A DNA stretch of 24,000 nucleotides from an archaeon (GTDB taxonomy: Archaea > Nanobdellota > Nanobdellia > SCGC-AAA011-G17 > GW2011-AR20). Positions 1,905 through 22,773 of this stretch are shown piece by piece. The position numbers were made by a program, and so were the translations under genes. The stretch covers positions 10,013-34,012 of the forward strand of contig NYZO01000106.1 in assembly GCA_002687185.1 (NCBI GenBank). The letters run 5' to 3'. Within the stretch, counting starts at the first letter, position 1, and the number at the start of each line of letters is the position of its first letter. The notes below the pieces were generated by a model. The model was not told the DNA's origin and searched no databases. It saw only the letters and a program-made list of their open reading frames with translations.

Positions 1905-1974
1905 GTTTAGTAGCAGTGTCTCTTTGAAAATGTTTGAAAAAGGGTATTTGTTATAGTATGTGCATAGAAAAATA

Positions 1975-3036
1975 ATGATAGATATTCAAATTTTTAATAA
2001 GATCGATCAAGCGCTCATGGGTATAGGTAAAGGATTAAAACCCCTCTCTTATTCTGAACCGACTAATGAACCAGAACAAAAAAGAAAATTCTTAGATGGA
2101 ACTATTCGTAATCCTAGTTTTTTGTATAAAGAACTTGAATACGATCCACAAGATGTTAAGGAAAGACTAAATGCTATTGAGATTCCTGACGGAAAATTAG
2201 GTAAGGTTTACGAGAAAAAAAGAAGGAACGCATTGCTTGAGAATAAAATTATTATACATAGAGGAGATGAAGATATTGTTAGAGAGTCTACGATTTTAAT
2301 GCACGGCTCTCCAGACCGTGAACTCGTTGAATATGCGGATTCGTTATTATTAAAAATTGATCCTATAATAATTAAAACCCCTCTTACGTCTGACATTGCG
2401 AGGGATGCGCTACAACAAGCCTTATATGGAAATGGTTTGACTGATTGGACGACTGAACTTTCAAAAAAGAAATCGACAACTGTGTATACTGGTGAGAAAA
2501 AAATGACTGTGTGTGAGGACAGAAAATTTTCTGAAGGCGCTATTAAAAGATTAAAAGTGCATGACATTATACATGCTCTAAGAGGTGCAAACGGCTACGC
2601 GCAACCGCTTAGTATATTTGTCCTTGGATTTCCAGGATACATGTCAACTGAGGAAGGACTTACCACATACTTTGAACAAATAACAGGTAATTCTAATGAC
2701 CAAATGAAAAGAGAATATGCAGCAAGAGTTATAGCTGTTGATTCAGTTTGTCAAGGTTTAAACTTTAGACGGGCTTTTAACAGATTGAAAGATTATGGTT
2801 TAACTGATAATAAAGCATGGGACACTGCGGTTAGAACATATAGAGCTGGTGGATATGTGAAAGATCATGTGTATCTTCAAGGGAATAGACTGATTTACGA
2901 ATTCGTAGAAAATGGTGGAGATATTAAAGAGCTATTTGTAGGCAAAATTGGAATTGATGATCTTCCATTAGTTAGAAGGCTTAGAGAAAAAGGAATAGTC
3001 AAAGAGCCAGTATACCTTCCAAGTTTTTTAGAGTAA
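1975..3036 (+). CDS. DUF1704 / MATCAP-like (QEGLA-motif family) putative metallocarboxypeptidase
   Basis: The track ORF starts at GTG 1960; the first ATG is at 1975. VHDIIHALRGANGYAQP followed by STEEGLTTYFEQ resembles the HEIxxHxxRxxNGxxQP ... QEGLA signature recalled for this family. The first His is followed by Asp rather than Glu. Function assigned from memory of motifs only. Confidence 0.5.
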   Translation: MIDIQIFNKIDQALMGIGKGLKPLSYSEPTNEPEQKRKFLDGTIRNPSFLYKELEYDPQDVKERLNAIEIPDGKLGKVYEKKRRNALLENKIIIHRGDEDIVRESTILMHGSPDRELVEYADSLLLKIDPIIIKTPLTSDIARDALQQALYGNGLTDWTTELSKKKSTTVYTGEKKMTVCEDRKFSEGAIKRLKVHDIIHALRGANGYAQPLSIFVLGFPGYMSTEEGLTTYFEQITGNSNDQMKREYAARVIAVDSVCQGLNFRRAFNRLKDYGLTDNKAWDTAVRTYRAGGYVKDHVYLQGNRLIYEFVENGGDIKELFVGKIGIDDLPLVRRLREKGIVKEPVYLPSFLE

Positions 3037-3049
3037 AGTTCTTTCTTAC

Positions 3050-3289
3050 TTAGTAAAACTCTTCCTCGTCAGAACCTGAACTCTCTTCTACAATTTCTTT
3101 AGGCTTTTCAACAGAACTTTTTTCAACCAAAGGACGCTCTAAAACAACCGAATCTTTAGAATCGTTTTTATTAACTTGACCGCTCAAATCAGTCAAACGC
3201 TCGTCAATTTTTTCTAATTTCCATTTAATCTGGTCAAACTCCTCTTTCACCTTAGCAAACGCTTTTTTTAACCGCTCTTCATCAATCAT
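3050..3289 (-). CDS. Small coiled-coil protein with acidic C-terminal tail (...SSGSDEEEFY), coupled to gyrA
   Basis: The track ORF is 3050..3316. An internal ATG at 3289 gives an 8-nt overlap (ATGATTGA) with the gyrA stop, suggesting translational coupling. No recognisable domain. Confidence 0.5.
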   Translation of the reverse strand: MIDEERLKKAFAKVKEEFDQIKWKLEKIDERLTDLSGQVNKNDSKDSVVLERPLVEKSSVEKPKEIVEESSGSDEEEFY

Positions 3290-6152
3290 TTTTATTCTCC
3301 TTATTGTTTGCATCACTTGTATGATGTATTATACGCGCGATACATTTTACTTTGTCCTCTTTTCTAAGCTTCATAATACGCACACCTTGAGTGCTACGGC
3401 CCATAGTACGTACACTGGATGTTGCAATACGTATAACAATACCCTTAGCACTGGTTATTAATAGTTCATCGTGATCCATCACTGTCTTTATACCAACAAC
3501 AGAACCGTTTCTCTCACTCGTCTTAATATTAGTAACACCTTTCCCACCGCGTTTAATCAACCGATATTGGTCCATATTTGTACGTTTTCCAAAGCCGTTC
3601 TCAGTTATCGTAAACAGTGTAGCATCAGTTCTTGCAACTTCCAAACCAATAACAGCATCACCCTCCTTTAAACGAATACCGCGAACACCGCTTGCAGTAC
3701 GACCCATTTTCCTAACATCAGTACTTTTAAACTTAATAGCCATACCTTTTTGAGTACATAACATAAACTGTAATTGCTCTGTACTCAAACGAGTTGTAAC
3801 TAACTGATCATCGCCACGTAAATTAATAGCACGAATACCACGCTTCATTGGACGAGAAAAAGAGGTAAGAGGGGTTTGTTTTAATACACCGTTTTTGGTG
3901 GCCATCATAACAGATACACGCTCGTAAAACTTAGCCACTGGTAACATTGCCGTAACTTTCTCGTCAGGTTGCATATTAATCAAATTAACCAAAGCCTTAC
4001 CACGACTGTAACGAGAGCTTTCAGGGATCTTATAAGTCTTTAACCAATGTACTCTGCCTTGATTAGTAAACAATAATATATAATAATGGCTGCTTGAAGT
4101 GAAAATCTGCTCAACAACGTCTTCGTCTTTAGTTTTAGAACTCATAATACCGACGCCGCCTCTATTTTGTTGTTTATATTCCTCTAAAGATAAACGTTTC
4201 AAATAACCGTCTCTTGTACACATAACAACAACGTTTTCTTCTGCAATCAAATCCTCTACCTCAAAATCTTCTTCTGAATCAATAACTTCAGTCCTGCGCT
4301 CGTCACCGTACTTGTCTCTTAACTCGGTTAACTCAGTCTTAATAATACCGTAACGACGATCTTTTGAACCTAAAATATCTTTTAATTCTGTAACAAGTTT
4401 GACTAATTCAGTTTTCTCGTCAGCTAGTTTCTTAGTTTCTAAGTTAGTTAACCTCTGTAAGCGCATATCGAGAATTGCTAAGCTTTGTTTTTCTGACAAT
4501 TTAAACTGTTCAATCAACCCAGTCTTTGCAACAACTGCGTCAGCGCTTGCTCTAATAAGTTTTACAACAGCGTCAATGTTTTGCAAAGCAATAAGCAGTC
4601 CATCAACGATATGCATCCGGTCTTCAGCCTTTTCTAATTCGAACTTAGTACGCCTTGTAACAACACTAAAACGATGTTTAATAAATTCCTCTAGTAAGCC
4701 TTTCAAACCCATAATCTTAGGCGCATTGTCAACAATAGATAACATGTTAGCACCGAATGTTACTTGTAGTTGCGTGTTTTTAAACAGCTGATTGACAATG
4801 ATCTCTTGGTTTTCGTTCTTTTTTAATTCAATAACAACACGCATTCCTTTGCGATCACTTTCGTCGCGGATATCACGGATACCCTCAATGCGTTTTTCTT
4901 TAACTAAATTAGCAATAGATTCTATCAATGTGGTTTTATTTACCGCGTACGGTATCTCGTCAATTATAACACGGTTTGGCTCAAACGACGTTTTACCCCT
5001 AACTCTAATCTTACCACGGCCAGTTTGGTACGCTTGAATAAGACCGGATCTCCCACAAATGATGCCGCCAGTAGGAAAATCAGGGCCAATGATCGTTTTA
5101 ATCAATTCGTCAACGTTAATATCAGGATTGTCGATCAACTGAATTGTCGTGTCAACAACGTTGGTCAAATTATGAGGAGGGATATTAGTAGCCATGCCAA
5201 CAGCAATGCCAGAAGTGCCATTAAGCAATAAATTAGGAACTTTTGCTGGCAGCACAGACGGTTCTTTTAAACTCTCGTCAAAGTTAGGTACAAATTTAAC
5301 TGTTTTCTTATCAATATCTTGCAGCATCTCTTCGGCAATACGGGTCATCTTTGCTTCAGTATATCTCTGGTGTGCAGCTGTATCCCCGTCTACCGAATTG
5401 TGGACAAACACCCCTGACGCTAAGGCAAAGTTATGGGTTCCGTCGATTGTAAGATCATAGACGTCTTCTTTTTGATTAAGGTACTCAACTCTTATTACTT
5501 TGTGATTGTGAAGTTTGGCTTGTTTTATTTTTAAGGACATAAGCGAATCATCTTTTTTTAGATTCTGAGCTTCCTTGTAAGAACCATCTCGTAACATAAA
5601 TCTATGATCGGGTGTACATTTGATCTCTTCTTTGTTATTTAAAGTTACTTTTATTAAAGATGCTGATTTTTTCGTCAAACGTGGCTTTTTTATTTCACCA
5701 GTTTGAACGAGTCCCTGGCCAGTTACTGTATAAGTATAATTCTTCTTTCCTTGATTGAATTCCTTTACTAAGTCTTTGAAGGATAATTTTCTTCCATCTG
5801 TTAATTCAACTTTTGTGTCACCTGTGAAACAACCGAAATTTCCTTGTCCGTTTACTAAGGGATAACGAAGAGAAAAATCTTGAGCCATTCTTACTAAAGC
5901 GTCATATACCGCAAGATCTCCGTGTGGATGAAAACGACCCAAAGTATCTCCGACGATCCTAGCACACTTTTTAAACGACTTATTTGGTTGCAGACCAAGT
6001 TTCAACATGGTATATAGTATCCTGCGGTGTACAGGTTTCAATCCGTCACGAACATCGGGCAAGGCACGAGACATGATAACAGACATGGCATAATCAATAT
6101 ACGCTTCTTTCATTTCGTCTTCAATCGGTTTGATAATTAAGTTTTCTGCCAT
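3282..6152 (-). CDS. gyrA: DNA gyrase subunit A, intein-containing precursor (956 aa; 811 aa after splicing)
   Basis: Motifs [25 protein letters not shown]...[17 protein letters not shown], plus C-terminal beta-pinwheel repeats. The GNFG/S junction is interrupted by an intein. Confidence 0.96.
5397..5831 (-). mobile_element. Mini-intein (145 aa, no homing-endonuclease domain) in GyrA
   Basis: Begins CFTGDTKV (Cys1, codon 5831-5829). Block B is CTPDHRF (T-x-x-H), block F is [12 protein letters not shown]. It ends VFVHN (5399-5397) and is followed by Ser+1. Removing it restores the contiguous GQGNFG-SVDGD motif. Confidence 0.85.
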
Positions 6153-9926: not shown

Positions 9927-10112
9927 TTATCTTGATTTGATTGCGTATTCACCGTCAGTAGTCATGTTCAATTGCTTTGCAATTTTTGATTTCTCTGCCT
10001 TCAAAACAAAAATACGACCTTTGAAACTATCACCAAACTGATGACCTTTACAAATAGGACAAGTGTCTTTGTCAACGAACAGTTTGCAGTTTTTACATAC
10101 TTTTCTAGCCAT
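9927..10112 (-). CDS. spt4: Transcription elongation factor Spt4 (RpoE'')
   Basis: Zinc ribbon CKNC...CPICK. I chose the start MARKVCKNC at 10112, which overlaps the rpoE' stop by 8 nt. The track's longer start at 10166 would lie inside rpoE'. Confidence 0.82.
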   Translation of the reverse strand: MARKVCKNCKLFVDKDTCPICKGHQFGDSFKGRIFVLKAEKSKIAKQLNMTTDGEYAIKSR

Positions 10113-11692: not shown

Positions 11693-12427
11693 ATGAAAAA
11701 GGCCCATGACCATGTATATGACCTCATAACAGATGATAATGAGATTACTTGGCAAACGATATTACTCGATTTAGTCAAAAGTGAGCAAATGGATCCGTGG
11801 GATGTTAATCTGACTCTTCTAGCTCAAAAGTATCTGCAACGTGTAAAAGCAATGGAGGAGCTTAATTTCTTTGTATCAGGAAAAGTTGTTTTAGCATCCG
11901 CTCTACTCCTGAAAATGAAGTCTAATAAACTTTTGTTAGAACAGTTTCCTGCGTTTGATCAATTATTCGCGCAAGATGAAGAGATGCCTGAACATGAAGA
12001 GTTAATTGATGATGTGCCATTGCCACAAGCGTACGCACAAAAAGACATGAGGCTAACGATTAAAACACCTCAGACAAGAAAAAGAAAAGTTTCTGTAAAT
12101 GATCTTGTAGAAGCACTAAAACAAGCACTAGAAGTTGAGCAAAGACGAACGAATAGACTGATCCAACAAAAATCAATACCTGATAATCTAGTTGTGCCTG
12201 TAAAGAAAATGGATATAAACCTTTTAATCAAAGATTTGTATGGAAGGCTTAGAAATTTTCTTGGGAGCCAAAAACAAGTTACATTTACTAATTTAGTTAA
12301 TAGTGAAAAAAAAGAAGATAAAATAACGACGTTTATCCCATTGTTACATTTATCTAATCAAGATAAAGTACATTTAGAGCAGCCTAAACATTTTGAAGAG
12401 ATTTATGTGCAACTCAAAAAACGTTAA
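11693..12427 (+). CDS. scpA: Segregation and condensation protein A (ScpA kleisin)
   Basis: N-terminal ScpA signature (ILLDLVKSEQMDPWDVNLTLLAQKYL...FFVSGKVVLASALLLKMKS) and a C-terminal winged-helix-like region. The track start is GTG 11678. I prefer ATG 11693, which has an A/T-rich element ~20 nt upstream. Confidence 0.8.
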   Translation: MKKAHDHVYDLITDDNEITWQTILLDLVKSEQMDPWDVNLTLLAQKYLQRVKAMEELNFFVSGKVVLASALLLKMKSNKLLLEQFPAFDQLFAQDEEMPEHEELIDDVPLPQAYAQKDMRLTIKTPQTRKRKVSVNDLVEALKQALEVEQRRTNRLIQQKSIPDNLVVPVKKMDINLLIKDLYGRLRNFLGSQKQVTFTNLVNSEKKEDKITTFIPLLHLSNQDKVHLEQPKHFEEIYVQLKKR

Positions 12428-13710
12428 GTCGTAAATTTCGTCGTCAACTGTTTTAGTGTGCAATGCTCTTGACGACCGGTTTCCATATTTCTTAAGGTGA
12501 ATTTTTTGGATGCTATCTCTTTTGGACCTATCATTAACGCAAACGGAATACCTTTACTGTTGACGTAATCTAAATTTTTACTCGGACCACGACTCAATAA
12601 ATCAATGTCAGTGTTAATGCCTTTGTCACGTAATTGTTTGGCTAGTTTGAACGCTTCTTGTTTGACTTCGCCTATCGGGATAATAAAAATTTTCGTGCTT
12701 GTTTGCTCGGCCGTATCCTTCATAGCGGTTGCAATCGTTTCGAGTCCAAAACTAATACCAACGGTTGGGTACGGAGTTTTTGAGTCTAGGAATTTACCTA
12801 TCATTTTATCATAACGGCCACCTGCGCAAACTGAGGAAGTCACTTTATTGTTCTTTAAAAACCATTCAAACATAGTTCCTGTATAATAACCTAAACCGCG
12901 AGCTAACGTTAAGTTAATTGATACGTACTTGTCTAAGTCAAGTGCGCTAAGTAGACTGATTAACTCGTCTAATTCTGACGCGCCACTACGACTATCATCA
13001 TCTTTTAGTGTTTCTAATAAGTAGCTCACTGTTTTTTTATTCGTTGACTGTTCTTGTATGTTTTTGAAAACTTTAGTGATGACTTGTTTGTCTAAGCCGA
13101 TTGATTCTAGTTCTTTTTTGACTTTTGCTTGGCCTTGTTTTTTTAGTTTGTCAATGGTTAGAATTGTTGGCAGCATATCTTTTTCAAGCACTCCAGCTTG
13201 GCTTAGCAGGCCGATTAATACTTTACGGTTATTGATTTCTATTCGCACTGGAAGTCCTAATTGATTGAATGCATCAATTGTTAGTGCTAAACATTCTGCT
13301 TCTGCTTGCATATTACTTACACCAACAATGTCTGCGTCACATTGTGAGAATTCTCGCACTCTACCTAGTTTGATTGGTCCGTCACGAAACACTTTTCCTA
13401 TCTCGTACCTTTTGTATGGGAACTTCATGTTCGGGTTCATACCGATAAAGCGACAGAACGGGACTGTTAGATCATACCTTAAAGCTAAGTCACGTTTGCC
13501 TTGATCTTTTAATCTGTACGTCTCTTTTAGGATTTCGCTTCCGCCCGCGTCTTTAGACGATAAAATATTATAGTACGCAAGAGTAGGTGTCTCAAGCGGT
13601 TCAAATCCGAACTTTTCAAACGTTTTTTTCAATACGGTTACAATCCGGTTTTTTGTGAGCATCTCACGACCAGAATAATCGTTTGTTCCTTTTAGGTTTT
13701 GAAGTTTCAT
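12424..13710 (-). CDS. hisS: Histidyl-tRNA synthetase (archaeal/eukaryal type)
   Basis: LRYDLTVPFCRF, motif 2 FRDGPIKLGRVREFSQCDADIVG, motif 3 AGGRYD, and a C-terminal anticodon-binding domain. The start overlaps the upstream gene's stop as ATGA. Confidence 0.92.
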   Translation of the reverse strand: MKLQNLKGTNDYSGREMLTKNRIVTVLKKTFEKFGFEPLETPTLAYYNILSSKDAGGSEILKETYRLKDQGKRDLALRYDLTVPFCRFIGMNPNMKFPYKRYEIGKVFRDGPIKLGRVREFSQCDADIVGVSNMQAEAECLALTIDAFNQLGLPVRIEINNRKVLIGLLSQAGVLEKDMLPTILTIDKLKKQGQAKVKKELESIGLDKQVITKVFKNIQEQSTNKKTVSYLLETLKDDDSRSGASELDELISLLSALDLDKYVSINLTLARGLGYYTGTMFEWFLKNNKVTSSVCAGGRYDKMIGKFLDSKTPYPTVGISFGLETIATAMKDTAEQTSTKIFIIPIGEVKQEAFKLAKQLRDKGINTDIDLLSRGPSKNLDYVNSKGIPFALMIGPKEIASKKFTLRNMETGRQEHCTLKQLTTKFTT

Positions 13711-14762
13711 TGTGTTATCACCCCCGTACTGTTCTTTGCTCTTAAGCTTTGTGTTTTTTGGTTGGAGACGTCACGAATAAGATCTCCCCATGCAATATTA
13801 CTGTTCACCATCATCATTTGCATGACCCAAATCACCTGCTGTGCTTCTTCTATTATGTTCGTTCTGTCATTATTGGTGTACGCCTGGATAAGCTCAGCGC
13901 CTTCCTCGCCAAACTTTTTGACTAAACTATTATTGTCTCCTAACAAATTTGACGTCAGGGAGTTATCTATCGGTTGCTTTTTTCTTTGAGCAATTTGGTT
14001 GTATTGCATCTCCAGTGGATCATCCGTCGGTTGTTTGTCACTGACATCGTCGTCTTTTTGCCATGATGTGATAATACTTATATCACTTTGTCTAATCTCA
14101 TTGAGCACTTCCAGTTGCGGATCTCTTGGAAACTTTCTTTGGGTGTCATCATATTTTAAGGTGTTCCCACTCACTACAATTTCAATCCCACAATCTGCTC
14201 GTTCAGGTATTTCGTTCTCTAGCTTGCCGTTTAGAACCCGGATCTTAGCATAAGATAATCCGTATGTTTCAGCTAGTACATCGAGAAAGTCTCTTGCAGT
14301 ATATTCATATTTAGCATTAACAACTACGGTCAATGGTTTTTGAGCTAGCGCATCGTAGTTGGTCCCTTTTGCAGCAATAAAGCAGAGCGTTGGTCGTGAG
14401 TAGGTTGACGATCTATCCTTTATGATCCAATCAATAGTATCGACTAGGCGTAGTTTAGTATTGGATGTTCGTATTCTATATTCATCGAATAAATCATCTC
14501 CAGTGATTCCAAAGACAGGAACGCCACGTTCAGTAAATTCGTCACATAGCCCAGGAATATCTTCACCACGATATTTCAAAACTTCTATGTTATTATTCGT
14601 GCATACGTATCGATCAGAATCTTTTTGTTCTACCCCAAGGATCGTTAAAGGGTTAGGGTTCATTTGTGTAAACCCACTATTTCCGGGGACGAGTAATTTT
14701 TCTATCGATTCCAAATCTGCTCTTTTGACTAGGCGATAAAGTTTTTGTTGTATTAATCTCAT
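13707..14762 (-). CDS. hisGE: Fusion of short-form ATP phosphoribosyltransferase (HisG, ~aa 1-233) and phosphoribosyl-ATP pyrophosphohydrolase (HisE, ~aa 249-335)
   Basis: HisG-like motifs: YRGEDIPGLCDEFTERGVPVFGITGDDLFDEY, VVNAKYEYTARDFL and LNGKLENEIPERADCGIEIVVSGNTL (PRPP loop). After an acidic linker, the HisE-like region is LEMQYNQIAQRKKQPIDNSLTSNLLGDNNSLVKKFGEEGAELIQAY...IIEEAQQVIWVMQMMMV. Confidence 0.72.
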   Translation of the reverse strand: MRLIQQKLYRLVKRADLESIEKLLVPGNSGFTQMNPNPLTILGVEQKDSDRYVCTNNNIEVLKYRGEDIPGLCDEFTERGVPVFGITGDDLFDEYRIRTSNTKLRLVDTIDWIIKDRSSTYSRPTLCFIAAKGTNYDALAQKPLTVVVNAKYEYTARDFLDVLAETYGLSYAKIRVLNGKLENEIPERADCGIEIVVSGNTLKYDDTQRKFPRDPQLEVLNEIRQSDISIITSWQKDDDVSDKQPTDDPLEMQYNQIAQRKKQPIDNSLTSNLLGDNNSLVKKFGEEGAELIQAYTNNDRTNIIEEAQQVIWVMQMMMVNSNIAWGDLIRDVSNQKTQSLRAKNSTGVITQ

Positions 14763-14810
14763 TTTTCTGACCGCCCTTTAACTATTGAAATCAAAGTTAA
14801 ATAGTAACTG

Positions 14811-14861
14811 TCAATGAATACGACCAGTGCTTTGCACCTTAGCCTCAAGTTTTTGTTTCAT
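14811..14861 (-). CDS. Candidate 16-aa mini-ORF MKQKLEAKVQSTGRIH between tRNA-His and hisGE
   Basis: GGAGG lies 8 nt upstream of the ATG (GTGGAGGAATAAAAAATG). A paralogous copy sits at 15036-15101. Below the ORF-track size cutoff. Confidence 0.3.
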   Translation of the reverse strand: MKQKLEAKVQSTGRIH

Positions 14862-14905
14862 TTTTTATTCCTCCACGTTTTAAGCCCGCATGGCTTTTTT
14901 AATAG

Positions 14906-14977
14906 GGCAGAAGCCGGGGATTGAACCCGGTCCGCAAGCTCCACAGGCTTGCATGCTACCATTACACCACAACTACC
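14906..14977 (-). tRNA. tRNA-His (anticodon GUG), copy 1, with encoded G-1
   Basis: Hand-folded cloverleaf: G-1 | GTAGTTG | TG | GTGT-AATGGTA-GCAT | G | CAAGC-CTGTGGA-GCTTG | CGGA | CCGGG-TTCAATC-CCCGG | CTTCTGC | C73. All arms pair except U5-U68 and U6-U67. No CCA is encoded. Confidence 0.78.
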
Positions 14978-15035
14978 ATAAAATAGAAAACTAACTATAG
15001 AATTAATTGAATTTTTAAGAATTAAAGAGCAATAA

Positions 15036-15101
15036 CTAGAACGAACAGTGAATACAACCAGCGCTCAATTGCGCCTTAGCCTTGTTAATTATGTATTGCA
15101 T
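15036..15101 (-). CDS. Candidate 21-aa mini-ORF MQYIINKAKAQLSAGCIHCSF (paralog of 14811-14861)
   Basis: Shares the core [E/K]AK[V/A]Q(L)S[T/A]G[R/C]IH with the other mini-ORF. No obvious SD sequence. It may instead be a non-coding repeat copy. Confidence 0.22.
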   Translation of the reverse strand: MQYIINKAKAQLSAGCIHCSF

Positions 15102-15165
15102 AAACTATAGATGAAATAATTAGTTTATAATAATTGCGGTGCCTATTTGAAAAATATATTTTGGC

Positions 15166-17829: not shown

Positions 17830-18135
17830 ATGGCTTATCTTAAGGTTGAGTGGGAACAGTGGAAAGCAGGTGTACTTTACACGAGCCGTTTTAATCCATG
17901 GGTACATGCTATTGATGAATCGTCTGATATGTCGGTTAATTTTGAAGACTGTTTGATCTTTATTATGAGTCAGTTTAAAGAAGGGACGAAGTTGATTCCG
18001 TCTATGGGATACATGGAATTGGAAGTTACAGGGGATTTACCTGAAAAAGAAAAACTAGTTTTGGAAGGAATTGTTGAATTGTATAACAACGCCCCAATTT
18101 TATATGATACGTTTCTAACCCCAACGCTTAAATAA
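17830..18135 (+). CDS. Hypothetical protein (101 aa), first gene of the MinD-like cluster
   Basis: Intact ORF, 21 nt upstream of the next gene. No motif recognised. Confidence 0.45.
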   Translation: MAYLKVEWEQWKAGVLYTSRFNPWVHAIDESSDMSVNFEDCLIFIMSQFKEGTKLIPSMGYMELEVTGDLPEKEKLVLEGIVELYNNAPILYDTFLTPTLK

Positions 18136-18156
18136 AACCATTATTATAACGAACCT

Positions 18157-18726
18157 ATGCACGCACTAGTAAAAAAAGATATCTTGTCAATTCTAACCTC
18201 TGCCTCAAAAGCACTGAAACAATCAAACATAACTACTCTAAGACAATTAAGCGACCAAACACTTCATAACGCAAACATCTACCAAGACCCAGAAGCAATA
18301 ACTATTGCGGTTACCATGTACGCATTATTTAAAATTTATAGTCGACCCAATTACGCCAAATTACCAACTTGGACTACGTTCGACACTAATGTTAAAAATA
18401 ATCTACTACACGCAAAACAACATTTAGAAAAAAACGATTATTCAGAGTTTAGTACTTCTTTAAAAAACATAACAAGTATAATCGACAAACTAGACAAAAA
18501 ACTTCGAAGCTACTTAAAAGATGTAATTTACAGAGCCCACATCAGCAAAGCAAGTAGATTTTATGAACACGGCGTCTCAATTGGCAGAACCGCAGAACTG
18601 TTGGGCGTCACAAGATGGGAGCTCATGGACTACGTAGGAAAAACCGGCATCCCGGACAAGAAGTATAACATCACAAAAACTCCAAAACAGCGACTAAAAG
18701 AGGCAAAAGCGTTCTTTAATCAGTAA
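18157..18726 (+). CDS. Helical protein with C-terminal UPF0175-like HTH domain
   Basis: The C-terminus ASRFYEHGVSIGRTAELLGVTRWELMDYVGKTGIP resembles the UPF0175/COG2886 HTH family (…GKISLGKAAELAGMSxWEFxxLLxxxGIP). The N-terminal ~130 aa is helical, with weak similarity to the next two ORFs (DPxxIxIA...YxAxK). Confidence 0.5.
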   Translation: MHALVKKDILSILTSASKALKQSNITTLRQLSDQTLHNANIYQDPEAITIAVTMYALFKIYSRPNYAKLPTWTTFDTNVKNNLLHAKQHLEKNDYSEFSTSLKNITSIIDKLDKKLRSYLKDVIYRAHISKASRFYEHGVSIGRTAELLGVTRWELMDYVGKTGIPDKKYNITKTPKQRLKEAKAFFNQ

Positions 18727-18768
18727 AGCAACATAATCTTTAAAAAAATCAATCCCTTCTAAGAACTT

Positions 18769-19236
18769 ATGCAACAGCTCAAAGAATTAATCACTACTGC
18801 TAACAAACATATCAGAACTGCAGACCATTTAGCGTATATGACGTATCCTTTAATAAAAGACCCAAAACTCATCATCAAAATAGCAGAACATGTATACCAC
18901 GCAATGAAAGTAGGCATTGAAGCAGTAGTATTTTACGAGCGACTCTACAAACGAATTAGCCAAGTAGGAGACGAGTTCACAGCAAAATACGACTTATTCA
19001 AAACTAAATGCGCTAAAAGATACGCAATTGACAGCACCCAAATACTTGCTTTTGAAGATCTTAACACAATACTTAAAGAACATAAAGATAGTCAAGTCAG
19101 TTTTATAAGGGAACAAAAACTAGTTATTTGTTCTGATCAGTTCCAAAATATCCGAACATTAACCATAGAGAGAGTGAAAACCTTTTTAAACTTGGCAAAA
19201 CAGTTTATTGTCAAAACTAATCAGATAGTACGATGA
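18769..19236 (+). CDS. Hypothetical helical protein (155 aa), paralog pair A member 1
   Basis: Intact ORF. Its stop overlaps the next start (ATGA at 19233-19236). Shares sequence patterns with 19233-19661. Confidence 0.5.
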   Translation: MQQLKELITTANKHIRTADHLAYMTYPLIKDPKLIIKIAEHVYHAMKVGIEAVVFYERLYKRISQVGDEFTAKYDLFKTKCAKRYAIDSTQILAFEDLNTILKEHKDSQVSFIREQKLVICSDQFQNIRTLTIERVKTFLNLAKQFIVKTNQIVR

Positions 19237-19661
19237 ATGATACGCTTGATCTTACACGGTCCATAGAAGAGTTAAAGCGAGTGGACCATCAATATTTTGT
19301 AACGCTTAAGTATACAAGAACAGCGGACGTTATTTTAAACACTATCAAACGTATGATTTCAGCTATAGAATTCGGCGCTGATGATGTGCTAGCATATAAA
19401 TTAGCCAAAAACAAAATTAAAGAAGTACCACCGACTAATAAAGAGCGAGTGGAAATGTTACAGAAATTTGGCTTATTAGTAAAAGATGTCGAATTTTATA
19501 ATTTTTTGAAAAAGCTTGAGAGGGCAGAGTATAAAGGGGAAAATGAGTATAGGAAAGGAGTTGCTATGGTAACGTCTTTTGCAGAGGTGGATATTTTGGT
19601 GCTGGGTGAATATTTCGAACATACCCAAGCACTTATCGAAAAACTAATGAAAATAAAATGA
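19233..19661 (+). CDS. Hypothetical helical protein (142 aa), paralog pair A member 2
   Basis: Intact ORF with ATGA overlaps at both ends (19233-36 and 19658-61), so it is translationally coupled to the ATPase gene. Confidence 0.5.
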   Translation: MNDTLDLTRSIEELKRVDHQYFVTLKYTRTADVILNTIKRMISAIEFGADDVLAYKLAKNKIKEVPPTNKERVEMLQKFGLLVKDVEFYNFLKKLERAEYKGENEYRKGVAMVTSFAEVDILVLGEYFEHTQALIEKLMKIK

Positions 19662-20425
19662 CTAGATTCATCGCTTGTGTATCAGCCAAAGGAGGCGTGG
19701 GCAAAACCACGACCGCTATTAATTTAGGCATCGCACTCAACCAGTTCAAACGTGATGTTATTATTGTTGATGCAAATACAACCACACCAAGCGTTGGTGT
19801 TAGTCTTGGCACACCGTTAGTTGAAACAGGGTTGTATGACGCACTAAAGAACGGTGCTGTTGAAGATATAATCCATTATCATGATTCAGGTACCAAAGTT
19901 ATACCCTCACAATTAGACTTGAAAACACGTGAAGCAGTTAGTTTCGCGCAACTTAAACGGTTATTTACCTCACTTAAAGGCATGACTGATATTGCTCTAT
20001 TTGATTGTAGTGCGGGCGTGAGCAAAGAAGTGTCGTTTATTATGAAGTTAGTTGACGAATTATTGATTGTTACAACGCCTGACCCGACCAGTGTTACAGC
20101 AGCACTTAAAACAGTGCGCATGGCTGAGGAGATGGGCAAAGATATTGTGGGCATTGTTGTTACACGCAAAAAAGGCAAGCTTGATTTGAGCAAGTCTGAG
20201 ATTGAAGAGACAATGGGCTACCCTGTTATAAGCAGCATCCCAGAAGACGATTTTATAAGGCGCGCGCAGCACAATCAAAACGCGATCATAAGTCTGTATC
20301 CACGAGCTCCTGCGTCAATTGCTTATCGTAATTTAGCAGCGGTTGTTGTTGAGGAGCCGTATCATGAGCGTGTACCCAAAGACGGTATGTTAAAACGTGT
20401 TGTTAAAGCTATTCAAAACCGTTAA
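19658..20425 (+). CDS. MinD/ParA-family P-loop ATPase (archaeal MinD-like)
   Basis: Deviant Walker A with signature lysine (SAKGGVGKTTTAINLG). Walker A' and B regions are present (ALFDCSAG, ELLIVTTPD). The 255-aa size fits. The C-terminus GMLKRVVKAIQNR could form an amphipathic helix. Confidence 0.87.
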   Translation: MTRFIACVSAKGGVGKTTTAINLGIALNQFKRDVIIVDANTTTPSVGVSLGTPLVETGLYDALKNGAVEDIIHYHDSGTKVIPSQLDLKTREAVSFAQLKRLFTSLKGMTDIALFDCSAGVSKEVSFIMKLVDELLIVTTPDPTSVTAALKTVRMAEEMGKDIVGIVVTRKKGKLDLSKSEIEETMGYPVISSIPEDDFIRRAQHNQNAIISLYPRAPASIAYRNLAAVVVEEPYHERVPKDGMLKRVVKAIQNR

Positions 20426-20448
20426 AAAAGGAGATTATTATTACAAAC

Positions 20449-20805
20449 ATGCATACACAGATTAATATAAATAATGTTTTACACAAATTTAGAGAAGAGG
20501 TTGCTAATCAGTATAGAAGAGAACTTCGAGTAAGTTCATATAACCGAATGGAACATGGTTTTACAGGGGAAACTTTTTATCAGTTATATGAACAACGGGG
20601 AAGAATAGCTACATTTTTCGGGCGATCTAAAAAATCTTTAGTTGAGATTACTATGAAACAAACACATTTTCTTGAATCTGATGATAGAGCTCAAGTGTCG
20701 TTTTCGGTGAAATTGCCAGATAAGAAAATCCGCTCAAAAGCGAGGGAGTATTTAGCTGCTTACGGCGAAGAGAACCGAATCGAATTTGTTTTATTGAAAT
20801 CATAA
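20449..20805 (+). CDS. Hypothetical protein (118 aa), paralog pair B member 1
   Basis: Intact ORF with GGAG 15 nt upstream of the ATG, 23 nt after the ATPase stop. Shares YxLYEQ ... A[RQ][EK]YL ... E[EQ]NxxEF with 20945-21334. Confidence 0.5.
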   Translation: MHTQININNVLHKFREEVANQYRRELRVSSYNRMEHGFTGETFYQLYEQRGRIATFFGRSKKSLVEITMKQTHFLESDDRAQVSFSVKLPDKKIRSKAREYLAAYGEENRIEFVLLKS

Positions 20806-20944
20806 TAAGGCGAATCAAAGATCAAATCTAATGACGTTTGATGTTAATTGATACTGATCCGTATCGCGAGCATGTACTAAAGATGTCCAAGGTGTAATTG
20901 AAACGATTCGAAATAGTTAAAAAGAGTGGTTTTATAGGTTTATT

Positions 20945-21334
20945 ATGGAATCTCAAGCACCTGCTATAGATGGTCTTACTACTTATCAAGTATTATCTCT
21001 TATAGGTCAAGAAGAACAACATAATTTTAAAAGGACACTTGAACCTGGTAGAATTACTTCTAAAATGTTGAATAAAGAGAACTTAAGTGATGAAAAGTAT
21101 TGTTTATACGAACAGCCCAAAAGAGTATTTTTAATGAAACAACCTCTGAGCAATGGGAAGGTAATATTAGACGTAACTTTCCATACCAAAGAAACTCAAG
21201 ACAGGGAATGTCCACAGACTTTTAATTTGACCGTATATCATCCCGATTTTATAGACACCGCCCAAAAATACTTAAGGTTGCATGCAGAACAAAATCACAT
21301 GGAGTTTCATTTTTGTTTTAAAAAGTACTTTTAA
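20945..21334 (+). CDS. Hypothetical protein (129 aa), paralog pair B member 2
   Basis: Intact ORF. Collinear motif matches to 20449-20805. Confidence 0.5.
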   Translation: MESQAPAIDGLTTYQVLSLIGQEEQHNFKRTLEPGRITSKMLNKENLSDEKYCLYEQPKRVFLMKQPLSNGKVILDVTFHTKETQDRECPQTFNLTVYHPDFIDTAQKYLRLHAEQNHMEFHFCFKKYF

Positions 21335-21383
21335 TTAGTCGGGTAGACAAACCCTTATCTTCAAACTTAATACGAACGAACAC

Positions 21384-21392
21384 TTTATAAAA
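21384..21392 (+). promoter_or_regulatory. TATA box for tRNA-His copy 2
   Basis: TTTATAAAA centred ~29 nt upstream of the tRNA 5' end at 21417. Confidence 0.5.
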
Positions 21393-21416
21393 TATTATAT
21401 TCTATTTTTCTATCAT

Positions 21417-21489
21417 GGCGGTTGTAGTATAGTGGTTAGTATACAAGACTGTGGCTCTTGGGACCCGGGTTCGATTCCCGGCTTCCGCC
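21417..21489 (+). tRNA. tRNA-His (anticodon GUG), copy 2, with encoded G-1
   Basis: Hand-folded cloverleaf: G-1 | GCGGTTG | TA | GTAT-AGTGGTTA-GTAT | A | CAAGA-CTGTGGC-TCTTG | GGAC | CCGGG-TTCGATT-CCCGG | CTTCCGC | C73. The same U5-U68 and U6-U67 mismatches occur as in copy 1. Confidence 0.82.
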
Positions 21490-21510
21490 CTAACTTTCCT
21501 CAATATTGGT

Positions 21511-21547
21511 CATTGGCGATGCAAACTATTGTGCATTGGTAATGCAA
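21511..21547. promoter_or_regulatory. Direct repeat CATTGG-NN-ATGCAA x2 just upstream of the ATPase TATA box (candidate operator)
   Basis: CATTGGCGATGCAA (21511-24) and CATTGGTAATGCAA (21534-47) match at 12/14 with 23-bp periodicity. An internal inverted repeat ATGCA/TGCAT is also present. Confidence 0.35.
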
Positions 21548-21549
21548 GC

Positions 21550-21557
21550 TTTTATAT
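21550..21557 (+). promoter_or_regulatory. TATA box for the AAA+ ATPase gene
   Basis: TTTATATA ends 23 nt before ATG 21580, consistent with a leaderless or near-leaderless transcript. Confidence 0.5.
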
Positions 21558-21579
21558 AGTAGTAGATCTTAGAATTACT

Positions 21580-22773
21580 ATGGTCTTAAAACAGGACATC
21601 AGAGAAACACTCAAAAAACAGATATCTGATCTAAATAAAAAGGAGAGTGGCATAAAGAGAGAAATATTAAAAAAAATTGACTTAGACGTCCCTCATGCGA
21701 TAATTGTCTCGGGCATTAGGAGATGTGGAAAAAGTACGTTATTGCATCAACTTATGAAAAAGAGCGTTTACTACTTTAATTTTGAAGATCCTAGAGTTTT
21801 AAGTTTTAAAGTGAGTGATTTTGAAAAATTAAAAGAAATATTCATTGAGGTATTCGGTGAAAAAAAGATTTATTTTTTAGATGAGATCCAAAATGTCCCT
21901 AATTGGGAAGTTTTTGTAAGATCTGAGATGGATAGCGGAAAAAAGTTTGTGATAACCGGGTCTAATGCAACACTTTTAAGTAAAGAACTTGGAACAAGAT
22001 TAACAGGAAGATATTTGAGGTATGAATTATATCCTTTTTCCTATAAAGAGTTTTTACAATTTACAAAAAAGAAAGCTTCAAAAGATTCCTTACGAAAGTA
22101 TATGGAAAAAGGAGGTTTTCCTGAATATCTAAAGTATGACAACAGTGATATCCTTCGTGATTTATTGGATAGTGTCATTACAAGAGACGTTTTGGTTAGA
22201 AATAATATTCGAGAAGCCGATCAAGTAAAAAAAATTTGTATCTATCTTTTGTCAAACATTGGAAAACAGTTTTCACTAAACAAGTTAACGAAACATTTTG
22301 GTATAGGTTCTGTTAACACCGTACGTTCTTATATTTCTTTTTTCGAGGATAGTTATTTGTTATTTACGGTCCCAAAATTTGATTATTCTTTTAAAAAACA
22401 GATCGTAAATCCTAAGAAGATTTATTCTATTGATGTAGGATTATCAACAGCAAATTCTATTTCATTCTCAAAAGATAAAGGCCGAATTTTAGAAAATCTC
22501 GTGTTTTTACATCTCAAACGAAAATATGACGAAATATTCTACTATAAAAATAAATCTGAATGTGATTTTGTTGTAAAAGATAAAGATAAGATTTTGTTCT
22601 GTGTACAGGTTTGTTTTATAGTAAATGAAGATAACAAAATGAGAGAATCAAATGGATTAAAAGAAGCTATGCAAGATTTAAATGTTAAAAAAGGTTTTAT
22701 AATTACCTTTGATCAAGAGGATATTATTGATGATATACCATTAATCCCTGCATGGCGTTGGTTCAGCACCTGA
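21580..22773 (+). CDS. AAA+ ATPase of the COG1373 / DUF4143 type (ATPase plus C-terminal nuclease-fold-like domain)
   Basis: Walker A GIRRCGKST and Walker B IYFLDEIQ. The C-terminal region with ...YYKNKSECDFVV... is typical of this family. The track ORF (GTG 21451) reads through the tRNA, so I used ATG 21580 downstream of the TATA box. Confidence 0.82.
   Translation: MVLKQDIRETLKKQISDLNKKESGIKREILKKIDLDVPHAIIVSGIRRCGKSTLLHQLMKKSVYYFNFEDPRVLSFKVSDFEKLKEIFIEVFGEKKIYFLDEIQNVPNWEVFVRSEMDSGKKFVITGSNATLLSKELGTRLTGRYLRYELYPFSYKEFLQFTKKKASKDSLRKYMEKGGFPEYLKYDNSDILRDLLDSVITRDVLVRNNIREADQVKKICIYLLSNIGKQFSLNKLTKHFGIGSVNTVRSYISFFEDSYLLFTVPKFDYSFKKQIVNPKKIYSIDVGLSTANSISFSKDKGRILENLVFLHLKRKYDEIFYYKNKSECDFVVKDKDKILFCVQVCFIVNEDNKMRESNGLKEAMQDLNVKKGFIITFDQEDIIDDIPLIPAWRWFST

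What the first reader, a model, noticed from the sequence alone, without database searches (positions are those of the whole stretch)
12424..15101. Co-oriented histidine module: tRNA-His, SD-led mini-ORF, HisG(short)-HisE fusion, then HisRS with an ATGA overlap
On the minus strand the order is tRNA-His(GUG), a 16-codon ORF with a GGAGG ribosome-binding site, a 351-aa protein, then hisS. The 351-aa protein looks like short-form ATP-PRT (HisG) at its N-terminus and PR-ATP pyrophosphohydrolase (HisE) at its C-terminus. The hisS start overlaps the fusion's stop (ATGA at 13707-13710). Three things are unusual. First, I do not know of a described HisG-HisE fusion; the known his fusions are hisIE, hisNB and hisHF. 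Second, no other his biosynthesis gene is in the window, so the first two pathway steps appear orphaned next to the histidine-charging machinery. Third, short-form HisG normally needs HisZ, a HisRS paralog, as its regulatory partner, and here a seemingly bona fide HisRS (motifs 2 and 3 and the anticodon-binding domain intact) is translationally coupled to it. This suggests either a HisRS that doubles as a HisZ-like partner or a repurposed HisG/HisE module, for example nucleotide or alarmone-like chemistry or histidine sensing. The HisG N-terminus and the second acidic HisE motif (EEAQQ where I recall E-A-A-D) are divergent, which would fit neofunctionalisation.
Basis: partly seen in the sequence, partly recalled or inferred. 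Interest (0 to 1): 0.78.

Follow-up and report, generated by a model that had tools for sequence, protein, structure and literature searches.

The report
Archaeal histidine module with conserved leader
A tiny marine archaeon strings together a histidine tRNA, a fused enzyme for the first two steps of histidine synthesis and the histidine-charging enzyme, all behind a short histidine-codon "leader" that recurs upstream of histidine genes in many related archaea and looks like an undescribed archaeal regulatory switch.

Summary
On the minus strand lie tRNA-His(GUG), a GGAGG-led 16-codon ORF, a 351-aa HisG-core/HisE fusion, and hisS overlapping it by ATGA.

Profile, structure-prediction and fold searches confirm both halves of the fusion. 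It recurs in about 28 proteins from Woesearchaeota and several bacterial phyla, and I found no paper describing it. In relatives it sits beside hisI, hisA/F, hisB or hisD. It is therefore a histidine-pathway enzyme, not a repurposed orphan.

hisG(E)-hisS adjacency recurs in at least 10 loci, and an upstream tRNA-His in many.

The main new result concerns the mini-ORF. It belongs to a conserved leader, about 60-190 nt long, that follows a TATA box. Family leaders carry overlapping small ORFs, one usually ending in His codons (HHHC-stop). In 33 of 37 metagenomic loci the leader precedes his operons, hisS or tRNA-His, against 1 of 20 controls. It has no conserved RNA fold and no Rfam match.

The best reading is a histidine-regulon unit under a candidate ribosome-dependent, His-codon attenuator in DPANN archaea.

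A HisZ-like role for HisRS remains untested. HisRS lacks the motif-3 arginine, but so do 56% of lineage homologs. Whether this genome has the rest of the pathway is unresolved.

The parts
15124..15133 (-). TATA-like box (TTATTATAAA), 22 nt upstream of the unit-A ATG. Putative archaeal promoter of the module.
   Evidence: Read from the sequence. In 28 of 41 family leaders a TATA-like box ends 19-27 nt before the conserved ATG.
15036..15101 (-). Leader unit A: small ORF MQYIINKAKAQLSAGCIHCSF-stop. His codon CAC is at 15050..15048. The stop is the TAG of the conserved TTCTAGTT motif.
   Evidence: A sequence model built without window sequences matches 15065..15041 with E=0.019, the second-best hit in the window.
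14905..14977 (-). tRNA-His(GUG) with encoded G-1 and C73, and no encoded CCA. It sits between the two leader units.
   Evidence: ARAGORN, Rfam, fold. A tRNA-His follows the leader in 17 or more related loci.
14870..14874 (-). GGAGG Shine-Dalgarno sequence for the mini-ORF.
   Evidence: Read from the sequence.
14811..14861 (-). The His codon is the last sense codon.
   Evidence: It is paralogous to unit A. The leader-family model matches 14833..14778 with E=3.4e-6, the best hit in the window.
14759..14848 (-). ORF in the +1 frame (TTG...ALVVFIDSYYLTLISIVKGRSEK-stop). It keeps the family's N-terminal LVVFI motif. Its TGA overlaps the hisGE ATG (ATGA).
   Evidence: Read from the sequence. The +1 frame is the best-conserved coding frame of the family. 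In the window this frame holds no His codon.
14058..14762 (-). HisG catalytic core (aa 1-235) of the fusion. There is no HisG_C regulatory domain.
   Evidence: The PRPP-loop motif EIVVSGNTL is conserved in the family alignment.
13722..14018 (-). HisE (PR-ATP pyrophosphohydrolase) four-helix domain (aa 249-347) of the fusion.
   Evidence: The EExxE motif is kept. The second motif ExxD reads EEAQQ (D to Q), as in most members of the window's subclade.
12424..13710 (-). hisS, a HisRS of the archaeal/eukaryote-like type. Its ATG overlaps the hisGE stop (ATGA at 13707-13710). The motif-3 Arg is replaced by Thr325.

Best explanation
This is one histidine-regulon transcription unit of a DPANN (Woesearchaeota-like) archaeon.

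Order of parts: promoter, leader unit A, tRNA-His, leader unit B (the mini-ORF), hisGE, hisS.

HisGE is a bifunctional enzyme of histidine biosynthesis. Its short ATP-phosphoribosyltransferase core makes PR-ATP. The HisE domain, fused where long HisG carries its regulatory domain, hydrolyses PR-ATP at once. From what is known of HisG, this would pull an unfavourable, product-inhibited first step.

hisS encodes the lineage's ordinary HisRS. It is translationally coupled to hisGE through the ATGA overlap.

The unit is headed by a conserved, unstructured leader whose small ORFs place His codons just before their stop. An oligo-T tract often follows in relatives. I infer that the position of a ribosome on those His codons reports His-tRNA supply. 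That position would then set how much transcription or translation continues into tRNA-His, hisGE and hisS. This would be an archaeal counterpart of the bacterial hisL attenuator.

Shown: the parts, their homology, their recurrence, and the leader's exclusive association with his genes, hisS and tRNA-His.
Inferred: enzyme activity, co-transcription, and the regulatory mechanism and its direction.
For: Fusion:
- Both domains are confirmed by Pfam and NCBIfam, by a profile search against PDB, and by AF2 plus Foldseek.
- 28 family members were found, and 36 genome loci including complete bacterial chromosomes.
- The family sits in his-gene contexts in relatives.
- All family-invariant residues are kept in the window protein.

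Module:
- hisG(E)-hisS adjacency occurs in the window, L006, L033, L034, L040, L043, L057, L090, L092 and L108.
- A co-oriented tRNA-His lies upstream in L006 and L040 and after the leader in 17 or more loci.

Leader:
- A degenerate DNA pattern recovered 66 metagenome loci. In 42 of them the unconstrained codons spell M-K/T-R-V.
- 33 of 37 of those with enough downstream sequence are followed by his operons, hisG, hisI, hisS or tRNA-His, against 1 of 20 non-family matches.
- A TATA-like box lies at a fixed distance.
- The +1 frame has 0 stops over about 37 codons in 15 of 15 leaders, while the other frames have 2-7 each.
- 34 of 42 leaders have at least one His in the last five codons of that ORF, and 25 have two or three. 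Almost all His codons of the ORF lie there.
- A T5-7 run follows the stop in 19 of 26 leaders, against 30% of random windows.
- A model built without window sequences finds the window's two units as its top two hits, at E=3.4e-6 and E=0.019.
Against: - No other his gene lies in the 24-kb window. I could not establish that this MAG has the rest of the pathway: a HisA query found no Tara-derived hit, which is inconclusive.
- The window's leader units are divergent. Each has a single His codon, in the frame-0 ORF, and the family's main (+1) frame has none here. Unit A scores weakly (E=0.019).
- The +1 ORF of the family mostly starts at TTG, GTG or CTG, 10 nt from the presumed transcript start. 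Its initiation is therefore unexplained.
- No terminator/antiterminator structures were found, and no leader-peptide attenuation is known in archaea, so the mechanism is conjecture.
- Close relatives show decay: L008 has a split fusion and L006 a degenerate HisE half.
- HisE has a D-to-Q change in a metal-binding motif.
Confidence: 0.6

Rival explanations
1. HisRS doubles as a HisZ-like regulatory or activating partner of the short HisG core. The hisGE-hisS coupling would then exist to make a stoichiometric complex. This would be a living analogue of the ancestor of HisZ.
For: - The HisG core lacks HisG_C.
- No HisZ is encoded in any of the his operons seen with short HisG.
- hisG(E)-hisS adjacency recurs in at least 10 divergent loci, with an ATGA overlap here.
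- According to the literature, short HisG normally comes with HisZ (PMC8305728).
Against: - The protein passes the hisS model and fails the hisZ model (347 against a cut-off of 287; 177 against a cut-off of 272).
- It keeps the anticodon-binding domain.
- About two thirds of short or fused HisG genes are not next to hisS.
- A shared leader explains the adjacency without a complex.
- Loss of the motif-3 Arg is lineage-wide and unrelated to hisG adjacency.
- No interface test was possible.
Confidence: 0.12
2. The conserved 'leader' is not a ribosome-dependent attenuator. It could be the operator of a histidine-responsive DNA- or RNA-binding protein (repeated TTSATTGT / CATTG motifs near the transcription start). 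Or it could be a small-protein gene that is merely syntenic with tRNA-His.
For: - There is a tandem 9-nt direct repeat, TTGATTGTA|TTCATTGTG, and CATTG recurs four times.
- Conservation is at nucleotide level, including third codon positions.
- No RNA structure was found.
- The AT-rich T-run before the tRNA could be the tRNA's own promoter.
Against: - An open frame of about 37 codons is kept in every class-1 leader, with in-frame length changes.
- His codons are concentrated in the last five codons.
- Variable sites are synonymous or I/V changes in that frame.
- These are signatures of translation-dependent sensing, not of an operator.
Confidence: 0.2
3. HisGE here is an orphan with a new role, such as nucleotide or alarmone-like chemistry or histidine sensing, in a genome without histidine biosynthesis. 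Alternatively it is a decaying relic.
For: - No other his gene lies in the window.
- DPANN genomes usually lack amino-acid pathways (general knowledge).
- HisE has a D-to-Q change.
- Decay is seen in L008 and L006.
- L007 has the fusion alone.
- Bacterial homologs sit next to a His_Phos_1 phosphatase, not his genes.
Against: - All family-invariant residues are retained.
- The D-to-Q variant P0002 sits in a hisI-hisA-hisGE cluster.
- The gene keeps a His-regulon leader.
- In relatives, his genes are typically scattered over several leader-headed units, so their absence from 24 kb means little.
Confidence: 0.1

Closest known systems
Short-form ATP phosphoribosyltransferase HisG_S with HisZ (Lactococcus, Thermotoga, Psychrobacter, Acinetobacter)
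   Same: - A catalytic two-domain core without the HisG_C regulatory domain (Foldseek matches to 5m8h, 1usy and 8oy0).
- It is encoded next to a HisRS-family gene.
   Different: - The neighbour is a full HisRS with an anticodon-binding domain, not HisZ.
- Gene order is hisG then hisS.
- A HisE domain occupies the C-terminus.
- The sequence is very divergent: Pfam 26.6 bits, and TIGR00070 is below its cut-off.
HisIE and other his gene fusions (hisIE, hisNB, hisHF, HIS4; HisA/F-HisIE in DPANN, PMC11237513)
   Same: HisE is fused to the enzyme of an adjacent pathway step.
   Different: The partner is step 1 (HisG), not step 3 (HisI). This architecture is not listed in the fusion surveys I read.
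Bacterial his operon leader peptide attenuator (hisL, Rfam His_leader)
   Same: A short ORF with His codons clustered near its end lies upstream of his biosynthesis genes. It is followed by a T/U-rich tract.
   Different: - It has an archaeal TATA promoter and a leaderless AUG.
- It has two overlapping ORFs in different frames.
- It has 1-3 His codons rather than 7.
- No alternative hairpins were found.
- It also heads hisS and tRNA-His.
- It has no Rfam match.
T-box riboswitch (His-specific) of Firmicutes and Actinobacteria
   Same: The regulon logic is the same: one cis element heads both hisS and his biosynthesis genes and contains a His codon.
   Different: There is no conserved secondary structure, no T-box sequence and no Rfam hit. 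ORF signatures are present instead.
Leaderless Cys-rich short ORFs that attenuate operons in mycobacteria (bioRxiv 10.1101/834739, listed)
   Same: A leaderless short ORF at the 5' end of a polycistronic transcript, whose regulatory codons match the pathway it heads.
   Different: The system is bacterial and uses a different amino acid. It has no embedded tRNA gene.

Membership tests
ATP phosphoribosyltransferase HisG (short form) | Match to the HisG sequence models at the curated thresholds | tested here: inconclusive
   Pfam PF01634 scores 26.6 bits against a cut-off of 25.5, barely passing. NCBIfam TIGR00070 scores 31.7 against 75.75 and fails. A family profile against PDB HisG chains reaches E=1e-9.
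ATP phosphoribosyltransferase HisG (short form) | Two-domain periplasmic-binding-protein-like catalytic fold | tested here: met
   AF2 model with pLDDT 87. The top 50 Foldseek PDB hits are all HisG, with E down to 1e-12 and target TM of 0.65-0.72 for catalytic cores.
ATP phosphoribosyltransferase HisG (short form) | PRPP-binding loop (D/E-x-V-x-S/T-G-x-T) and no HisG_C domain | tested here: met
   EIVVSGNTL in the window; the family consensus is IEIVYSGxT. There is no PF08029 hit, and HisE follows instead.
ATP phosphoribosyltransferase HisG (short form) | Genomic association with other his genes | tested here: met
   Met for the family. Not met within this 24-kb window.
ATP phosphoribosyltransferase HisG (short form) | Catalysis of ATP + PRPP to PR-ATP, and dependence on HisZ | not testable with these tools
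   This needs an enzyme assay.
PR-ATP pyrophosphohydrolase HisE (PRA-PH / MazG-like) | Sequence models at the curated thresholds, and a four-helix bundle | tested here: met
   PF01503 scores 36.2 against 21.3. TIGR03188 scores 54.9 against 42.7. PDB 1yvw is matched at E=9e-16. Helices 249-347 appear in the model.
PR-ATP pyrophosphohydrolase HisE (PRA-PH / MazG-like) | Acidic metal-binding motifs EExxE and ExxD | tested here: inconclusive
   EEGAE is present. The second motif reads EEAQQ, with D replaced by Q309. Q occurs in 6 of the 9 closest relatives (P0001-P0009, window included), including P0002, whose gene lies in a his cluster.
Histidyl-tRNA synthetase (HisRS) | The hisS model, the anticodon-binding domain, and the motif 2, HisA and HisB residues | tested here: met
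   TIGR00442 scores 347 against 287. PF03129 is present. R109, R117, R119, R271, Y276 and GGR297-299 are invariant in 133 homologs. The best PDB matches are HisRS 6nhi and human HARS.
Histidyl-tRNA synthetase (HisRS) | Class-II motif-3 arginine | tested here: not met
   The residue is Thr325. At this position the 133 lineage homologs have R in 58, V in 37, P in 21 and T in 10. This is a lineage trait, so I still call the protein the housekeeping HisRS.
HisZ (ATP-PRT regulatory subunit) | The hisZ model at threshold, and loss of the anticodon-binding domain | tested here: not met
   TIGR00443 scores 176.7 against 271.65. The anticodon-binding domain is present.
Leader-peptide transcription attenuator (bacterial hisL type) | A short translated ORF with a cluster of His codons upstream of his genes | tested here: met
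   For the family, 25 of 42 leaders have 2-3 His in the last five codons of a conserved open frame. In the window there is only one His codon per unit, in the frame-0 ORFs.
Leader-peptide transcription attenuator (bacterial hisL type) | Mutually exclusive terminator and antiterminator hairpins | tested here: not met
   RNAalifold predicts no conserved pairs. A hand-drawn 7-bp helix has weak support: 82% paired, with 17 and 39 of 500 shuffles reaching the observed values. There is no Rfam hit.
Leader-peptide transcription attenuator (bacterial hisL type) | Expression responds to His-tRNA charging | not testable with these tools
   This needs reporter, Term-seq or ribosome-profiling experiments.
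T-box riboswitch | Stem I with specifier loop, T-box antiterminator, and an Rfam RF00230 match | tested here: not met
   No match appears even at E<=1 on six canonical leader loci. There is no conserved structure.

The most novel reading that the evidence does not exclude
DPANN archaea have a hairpin-less, ribosome-mediated histidine attenuator. It is a leaderless transcript with two overlapping small ORFs that end in His codons a fixed distance before an oligo-T tract. It controls tRNA-His, HisRS and histidine biosynthesis together. This would be the first leader-peptide attenuation system in Archaea and the first to include a tRNA gene in the regulated unit. A further possibility is that the coupled HisRS also serves the HisE-fused short HisG as a HisZ-like partner.
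Probability: 0.45. Interest if true: 0.88.

Novelty: new variant of a known kind. Interest (0 to 1): 0.78.

Why it matters
**Regulation.** Amino-acid-responsive cis-regulation by leader peptides, T-boxes or riboswitches is a textbook bacterial theme, and I know of no established archaeal counterpart. A conserved, easily recognised His-codon leader heads his operons, hisS and tRNA-His in uncultured archaea. That gives a concrete, testable candidate for ribosome-RNA polymerase coupling used as a regulatory device in Archaea, where termination depends on oligo-T rather than hairpins.

**Annotation.** The leader also marks the histidine regulon in DPANN genomes. It shows that some of these 'minimal' archaea keep, and regulate, histidine synthesis.

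**Enzymology.** The HisG-HisE fusion adds a new architecture to a pathway used as a model for gene-fusion evolution. It suggests a way to relieve PR-ATP product inhibition without HisZ or a regulatory domain.

Tried and rejected
1. **T-box or riboswitch reading of the leader.** Rfam at gathering threshold on the window, and at E<=1 on six canonical loci, gave only tRNAs. RNAalifold found no conserved pairs. A candidate helix, GAGTTGR/YCAACTC, has only weak covariation.

2. **Anticodon-loop mimicry or extended codon-anticodon pairing.** Rejected, because the relevant bases vary.

3. **The frame-0 micro-ORF (MKRVDCIHCx) as the only leader peptide.** Its variable sites give D/G and C/Y changes, and codon 10 is NNG. 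The +1 frame explains the variation better and is always open. Both frames may be used. A programmed +1 frameshift was considered and dropped, because codons 2-3 are not conserved.

4. **Motif-3 Arg loss as a sign that the HisRS is HisZ-like.** Rejected. 56% of 133 lineage HisRS lack it, whatever their context.

5. **Finding the rest of the pathway in the same MAG.** I searched with the HisA of relative L005. None of the best 120 hits came from Tara, which is inconclusive.

6. **The bacterial promoter/terminator scanner.** Not used, because the organism is archaeal.

Full report
**Context.** The window is archaeal. It encodes eIF2-gamma, ribosomal protein S24e, Rpb7/RpoE, ScpA, and gyrase with an intein in GyrA. 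GC content is about 36%. The fusion and the HisRS are NCBI proteins MAF37041.1 and MAF37040.1, from a Tara Oceans mesopelagic 0.1-0.22 µm sample. The closest HisRS homologs are named Woesearchaeota or Nanoarchaeota. The host is therefore a DPANN-type archaeon.

**Observation.**
- tRNA-His(GUG) at 14976..14905, with an encoded G-1.
- A GGAGG-led 16-codon ORF at 14861..14811.
- A 351-aa ORF at 14762..13707.
- hisS at 13710..12424, with an ATGA overlap.

**The fusion.**
- Single-sequence scores for the N-terminal half are marginal: Pfam HisG 26.6 against 25.5, and TIGR00070 below its cut-off.
- A profile of 19 family members hits solved HisG structures at 1e-9 and HisE at 9e-16.
- The AF2 model (pLDDT 87) has a two-domain alpha/beta core followed by a four-helix bundle.
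- Its best 50 Foldseek PDB matches are all HisG.
- The HisG motifs are conserved in the family: RGEDIP, TGDDLFDEY, NxKY, GxxE and the PRPP loop EIVxSGxT. So are the HisE motifs SYTSxLL and GEExAE.
- HisE stands where long HisG has its histidine-binding regulatory domain.
- The second acidic HisE motif is ExxQ in the window and in most of its subclade.

**Distribution and context of the fusion.**
- There are 28 relatives among 5.8 billion proteins.
- There are 36 loci in species-representative genomes. They come from Woesearchaeota and, unexpectedly, from complete chromosomes of Latescibacterota, Poribacteria, Gemmatimonadota, Chloroflexota and Opitutales.
- In archaeal relatives the gene sits in his clusters: LDcluster4 - HisA/F+HisI - HisGE - IGPD (L002, L036); HisGE - HisD (L003, L023); LDcluster4 - HisI - HisA - HisGE (L005); HisGE - IGPD - x - HisRS (L034).
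- The family is therefore a histidine-biosynthesis enzyme, not a repurposed module.
- I found no description of a HisG-HisE fusion in the his-fusion reviews or in a 2024 survey of archaeal fusions. That survey does list HisA/F-HisIE in DPANN.
- NCBI names the protein only 'phosphoribosyl-ATP diphosphatase'.

**Recurrence of the module.**
- hisG(E) immediately followed by hisS recurs in L006, L033, L040, L043, L057, L090, L092 and L108. In L034 the two are two genes apart.
- A co-oriented tRNA-His lies just upstream in L006 and L040.
- The adjacency is therefore conserved across proteins only about 30% identical.

**The mini-ORF belongs to a conserved leader.**
- A 40-nt stretch inside the mini-ORF is repeated upstream of the tRNA. 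The same core, GGTTGTNTTCAYTG, lies upstream of the his cluster in most archaeal relatives.
- A degenerate pattern, ATG-N9-GRTTRTNTTCAYTGT-N3-TAA, found 66 metagenome loci. In 42 of them the unconstrained codons 2-4 read K/T-R-V, marking a true family.
- Of the 37 family loci with at least 400 nt downstream, 33 are followed on the same strand by a his gene, hisS or tRNA-His. Among the 20 comparable non-family matches, which serve as an internal control, only one is, and that one looks like a divergent member.
- The downstream units are varied:
  - Full his operons: short HisG - HisC+HAD - HisB - HisH - HisA - HisF/I/E - HisD.
  - HisG or HisGE followed by HisRS.
  - HisRS alone.
  - HisI, sometimes with long HisG.
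  - Long HisG alone.
- A tRNA-His, in some loci containing an intron, lies 60-250 nt after the leader in at least 17 loci.

**Anatomy of the leader.**
- A TATA-like box ends 19-27 nt before a conserved ATG in 28 of 41 leaders. This implies a leaderless transcript.
- From that ATG runs a 10-codon ORF, M-K-R-V-D/G-C/Y-I/L/F-H-C-x-stop.
- The variable sites fit the +1 frame better. They are I/V exchanges or synonymous changes there, but D/G and C/Y changes in frame 0.
- The +1 frame starts at an invariant NTG: TTG in 34 leaders, CTG in 5 and GTG in 2.
- It is open for about 37 codons in 15 of 15 long leaders, while the other frames hold 2-7 stops each.
- It ends in HHHC, HHC, HHH, HNHC, FHG and similar tails. 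34 of 42 leaders have at least one His in the last five codons, and 25 have two or three. Almost no His codon lies elsewhere in the ORF.
- The end of the long ORF is a paralogous repeat of the end of the short one: CAT-TGY-(x)-stop, GTTCT, TTTA..TAGTTT.
- A T5-7 run follows the long ORF's stop in 19 of 26 leaders, usually 25-30 nt after it, against 30% of random windows.
- No conserved secondary structure is detectable.
- No Rfam family matches.

**The window's copies.** A sequence-only model built without window sequences ranks the two window copies first and second in the window. Unit B (14833..14778) scores E=3.4e-6 and unit A (15065..15041) scores E=0.019.
- Unit A follows a TATA-like box. 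Its ORF is MQYIINKAKAQLSAGCIHCSF, and its stop is the TAG of the conserved TTCTAGTT motif.
It has its own Shine-Dalgarno sequence and ends ...G-R-I-H-stop.
- In the window the +1 frame keeps the LVVF motif but has no His codon. In unit B this frame ends in a TGA that overlaps the hisGE ATG.
- The nearest leader relatives (L066, L075, L101) have leader - tRNA-His - hisS without hisGE. This suggests that hisGE and a duplicated leader unit were inserted between the tRNA and hisS. That step is inference.

**HisRS.**
- It is the lineage's ordinary enzyme. It passes the hisS model and fails the hisZ model, and it has the anticodon-binding domain.
- Its best solved relatives are HisRS 6nhi and human HARS.
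- Motif 2, HisA and HisB residues are invariant in 133 homologs.
- The motif-3 arginine is Thr here, and it is absent from 56% of those homologs (V, P, T or A). This holds whatever the gene's neighbours are. It is a curious lineage trait, not evidence for a HisZ role.

**Mechanism.**
- Shown: the parts and their recurrence.
- Inferred: this is a histidine-regulon unit. HisGE carries out steps 1 and 2. The fusion would remove PR-ATP, a product inhibitor of an unfavourable reaction; this rests on established HisG enzymology, not on a test here. hisS is translationally coupled to hisGE.
- Also inferred: the leader senses His-tRNA through ribosomes pausing at His codons placed just before a stop. 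An oligo-T tract, the archaeal type of termination signal, often follows at about the spacing of a ribosome touching RNA polymerase. I cannot tell the direction of control, nor how the +1 ORF is initiated.

**Rivals.**
- An operator or RNA-binding-protein site. The repeated TTSATTGT/CATTG motifs favour it, and the ORF signatures argue against it.
- HisRS as a HisZ-like partner. No HisZ is seen in any operon, but most short HisG genes are not next to hisS, and the shared leader is a sufficient explanation.
- An orphan or relic. Decay is seen in L008 and L006, but the window protein keeps every invariant residue.

**What remains open.**
- Whether the window's genome has the remaining his genes (one search was inconclusive).
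- Whether the parts are co-transcribed.
- Whether the fusion has the predicted enzyme activity.
- Whether the leader actually regulates anything.

Noticed in passing
window 21417-21490 (+): A second, clearly different tRNA-His(GUG), about 75% identical to the first (Rfam 57.9 bits). It has its own TATA-like box and no leader. Several relatives (L066, L075, L088, L094, L101) also carry two tRNA-His genes, one before and one after the leader.
   Followed up: partly
window 14905-14977 (-) and 21417-21490 (+): Both tRNA-His genes have tandem U-U mismatches at acceptor-stem positions 5:68 and 6:67. Both have an encoded G-1, C73 and no CCA. The leader-linked tRNA of L066 shares the pattern.
   Followed up: partly
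window 12424-13710 (-), residue 325; homologs P0029-P0148: The class-II motif-3 arginine of HisRS is missing in the window (Thr) and in 56% of 133 Woesearchaeota/Nanoarchaeota homologs (V 37, P 21, T 10, A 3). All other catalytic residues are invariant. How ATP is bound is unexplained.
   Followed up: partly
L002 8353-8925, L005 8141-8779, L036 6267-6869, L040 7333-8001, L043 2162-2680: A SLOG/LOG-like gene (Pfam LDcluster4) is the first gene of the his cluster in six relatives, directly before HisA/F-HisI, HisI or HisG. It may be a nucleotide-processing step tied to the pathway, for example disposal of AICAR. It has no counterpart in the window.
   Followed up: no
L009-L032, L042 (e.g. L030 7956-9429): Bacterial HisG-HisE fusions (309 aa, about 30% identical) occur on complete chromosomes of Latescibacterota, Poribacteria, Gemmatimonadota, Chloroflexota and Opitutales. 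In many of these loci, such as L030, L019 and L042, a histidine-phosphatase-superfamily gene (His_Phos_1) follows 8 nt later. No other his genes are nearby. This suggests horizontal transfer and possibly a different pathway context.
   Followed up: partly
L052, L064, L068, L084, L093, L104 (downstream of the leader): Compact archaeal his operons carry unusual fusions. One is HisC aminotransferase + HAD phosphatase (571 aa). Another is a triple His_biosynth + PRA-CH + PRA-PH protein (407 aa). They sit beside a very short HisG (193 aa), and no HisZ is present.
   Followed up: partly
L073 (232-aa ORF after the leader), L043 1332-2081: An Asp/Glu/hydantoin-racemase family gene sits inside leader-headed units, before LDcluster4-HisG-HisRS or before HisRS. 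It could be a histidine-related racemase.
   Followed up: no
L008 8007-8979; L006 10001-10978: In the closest species-representative genome (L008) the fusion is split into two ORFs, probably a pseudogene. In L006 the HisE half has lost its motifs while hisG-hisS adjacency and the leader persist.
   Followed up: partly
L084, L097, L099, L104, L107 (after the leader): The tRNA-His genes following the leader contain an intron right after the anticodon loop. ARAGORN missed them. Rfam found 96-109-nt tRNA matches in L099 and L107.
   Followed up: partly
window 3282-6152 (-): GyrA carries an intein (Intein_splicing, aa 117-252) in an archaeon that has bacterial-type gyrase.
   Followed up: no
window 1960-3036 (+): A 358-aa protein matches Pfam MATCAP (microtubule-associated tyrosine carboxypeptidase family) with E=6e-49. 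This is an unexpected family in a DPANN archaeon.
   Followed up: no
window 17830-22773 (+): A run of small ORFs without Pfam matches, plus ParA-like and AAA_14/DUF4143 ATPase genes, ends at the second tRNA-His. It may be an integrated element.
   Followed up: no
window 9937-9970 (+): The third-best match to the leader model (E=0.12), between the S24e and Rpb7 genes on the opposite strand. It is probably chance.
   Followed up: no
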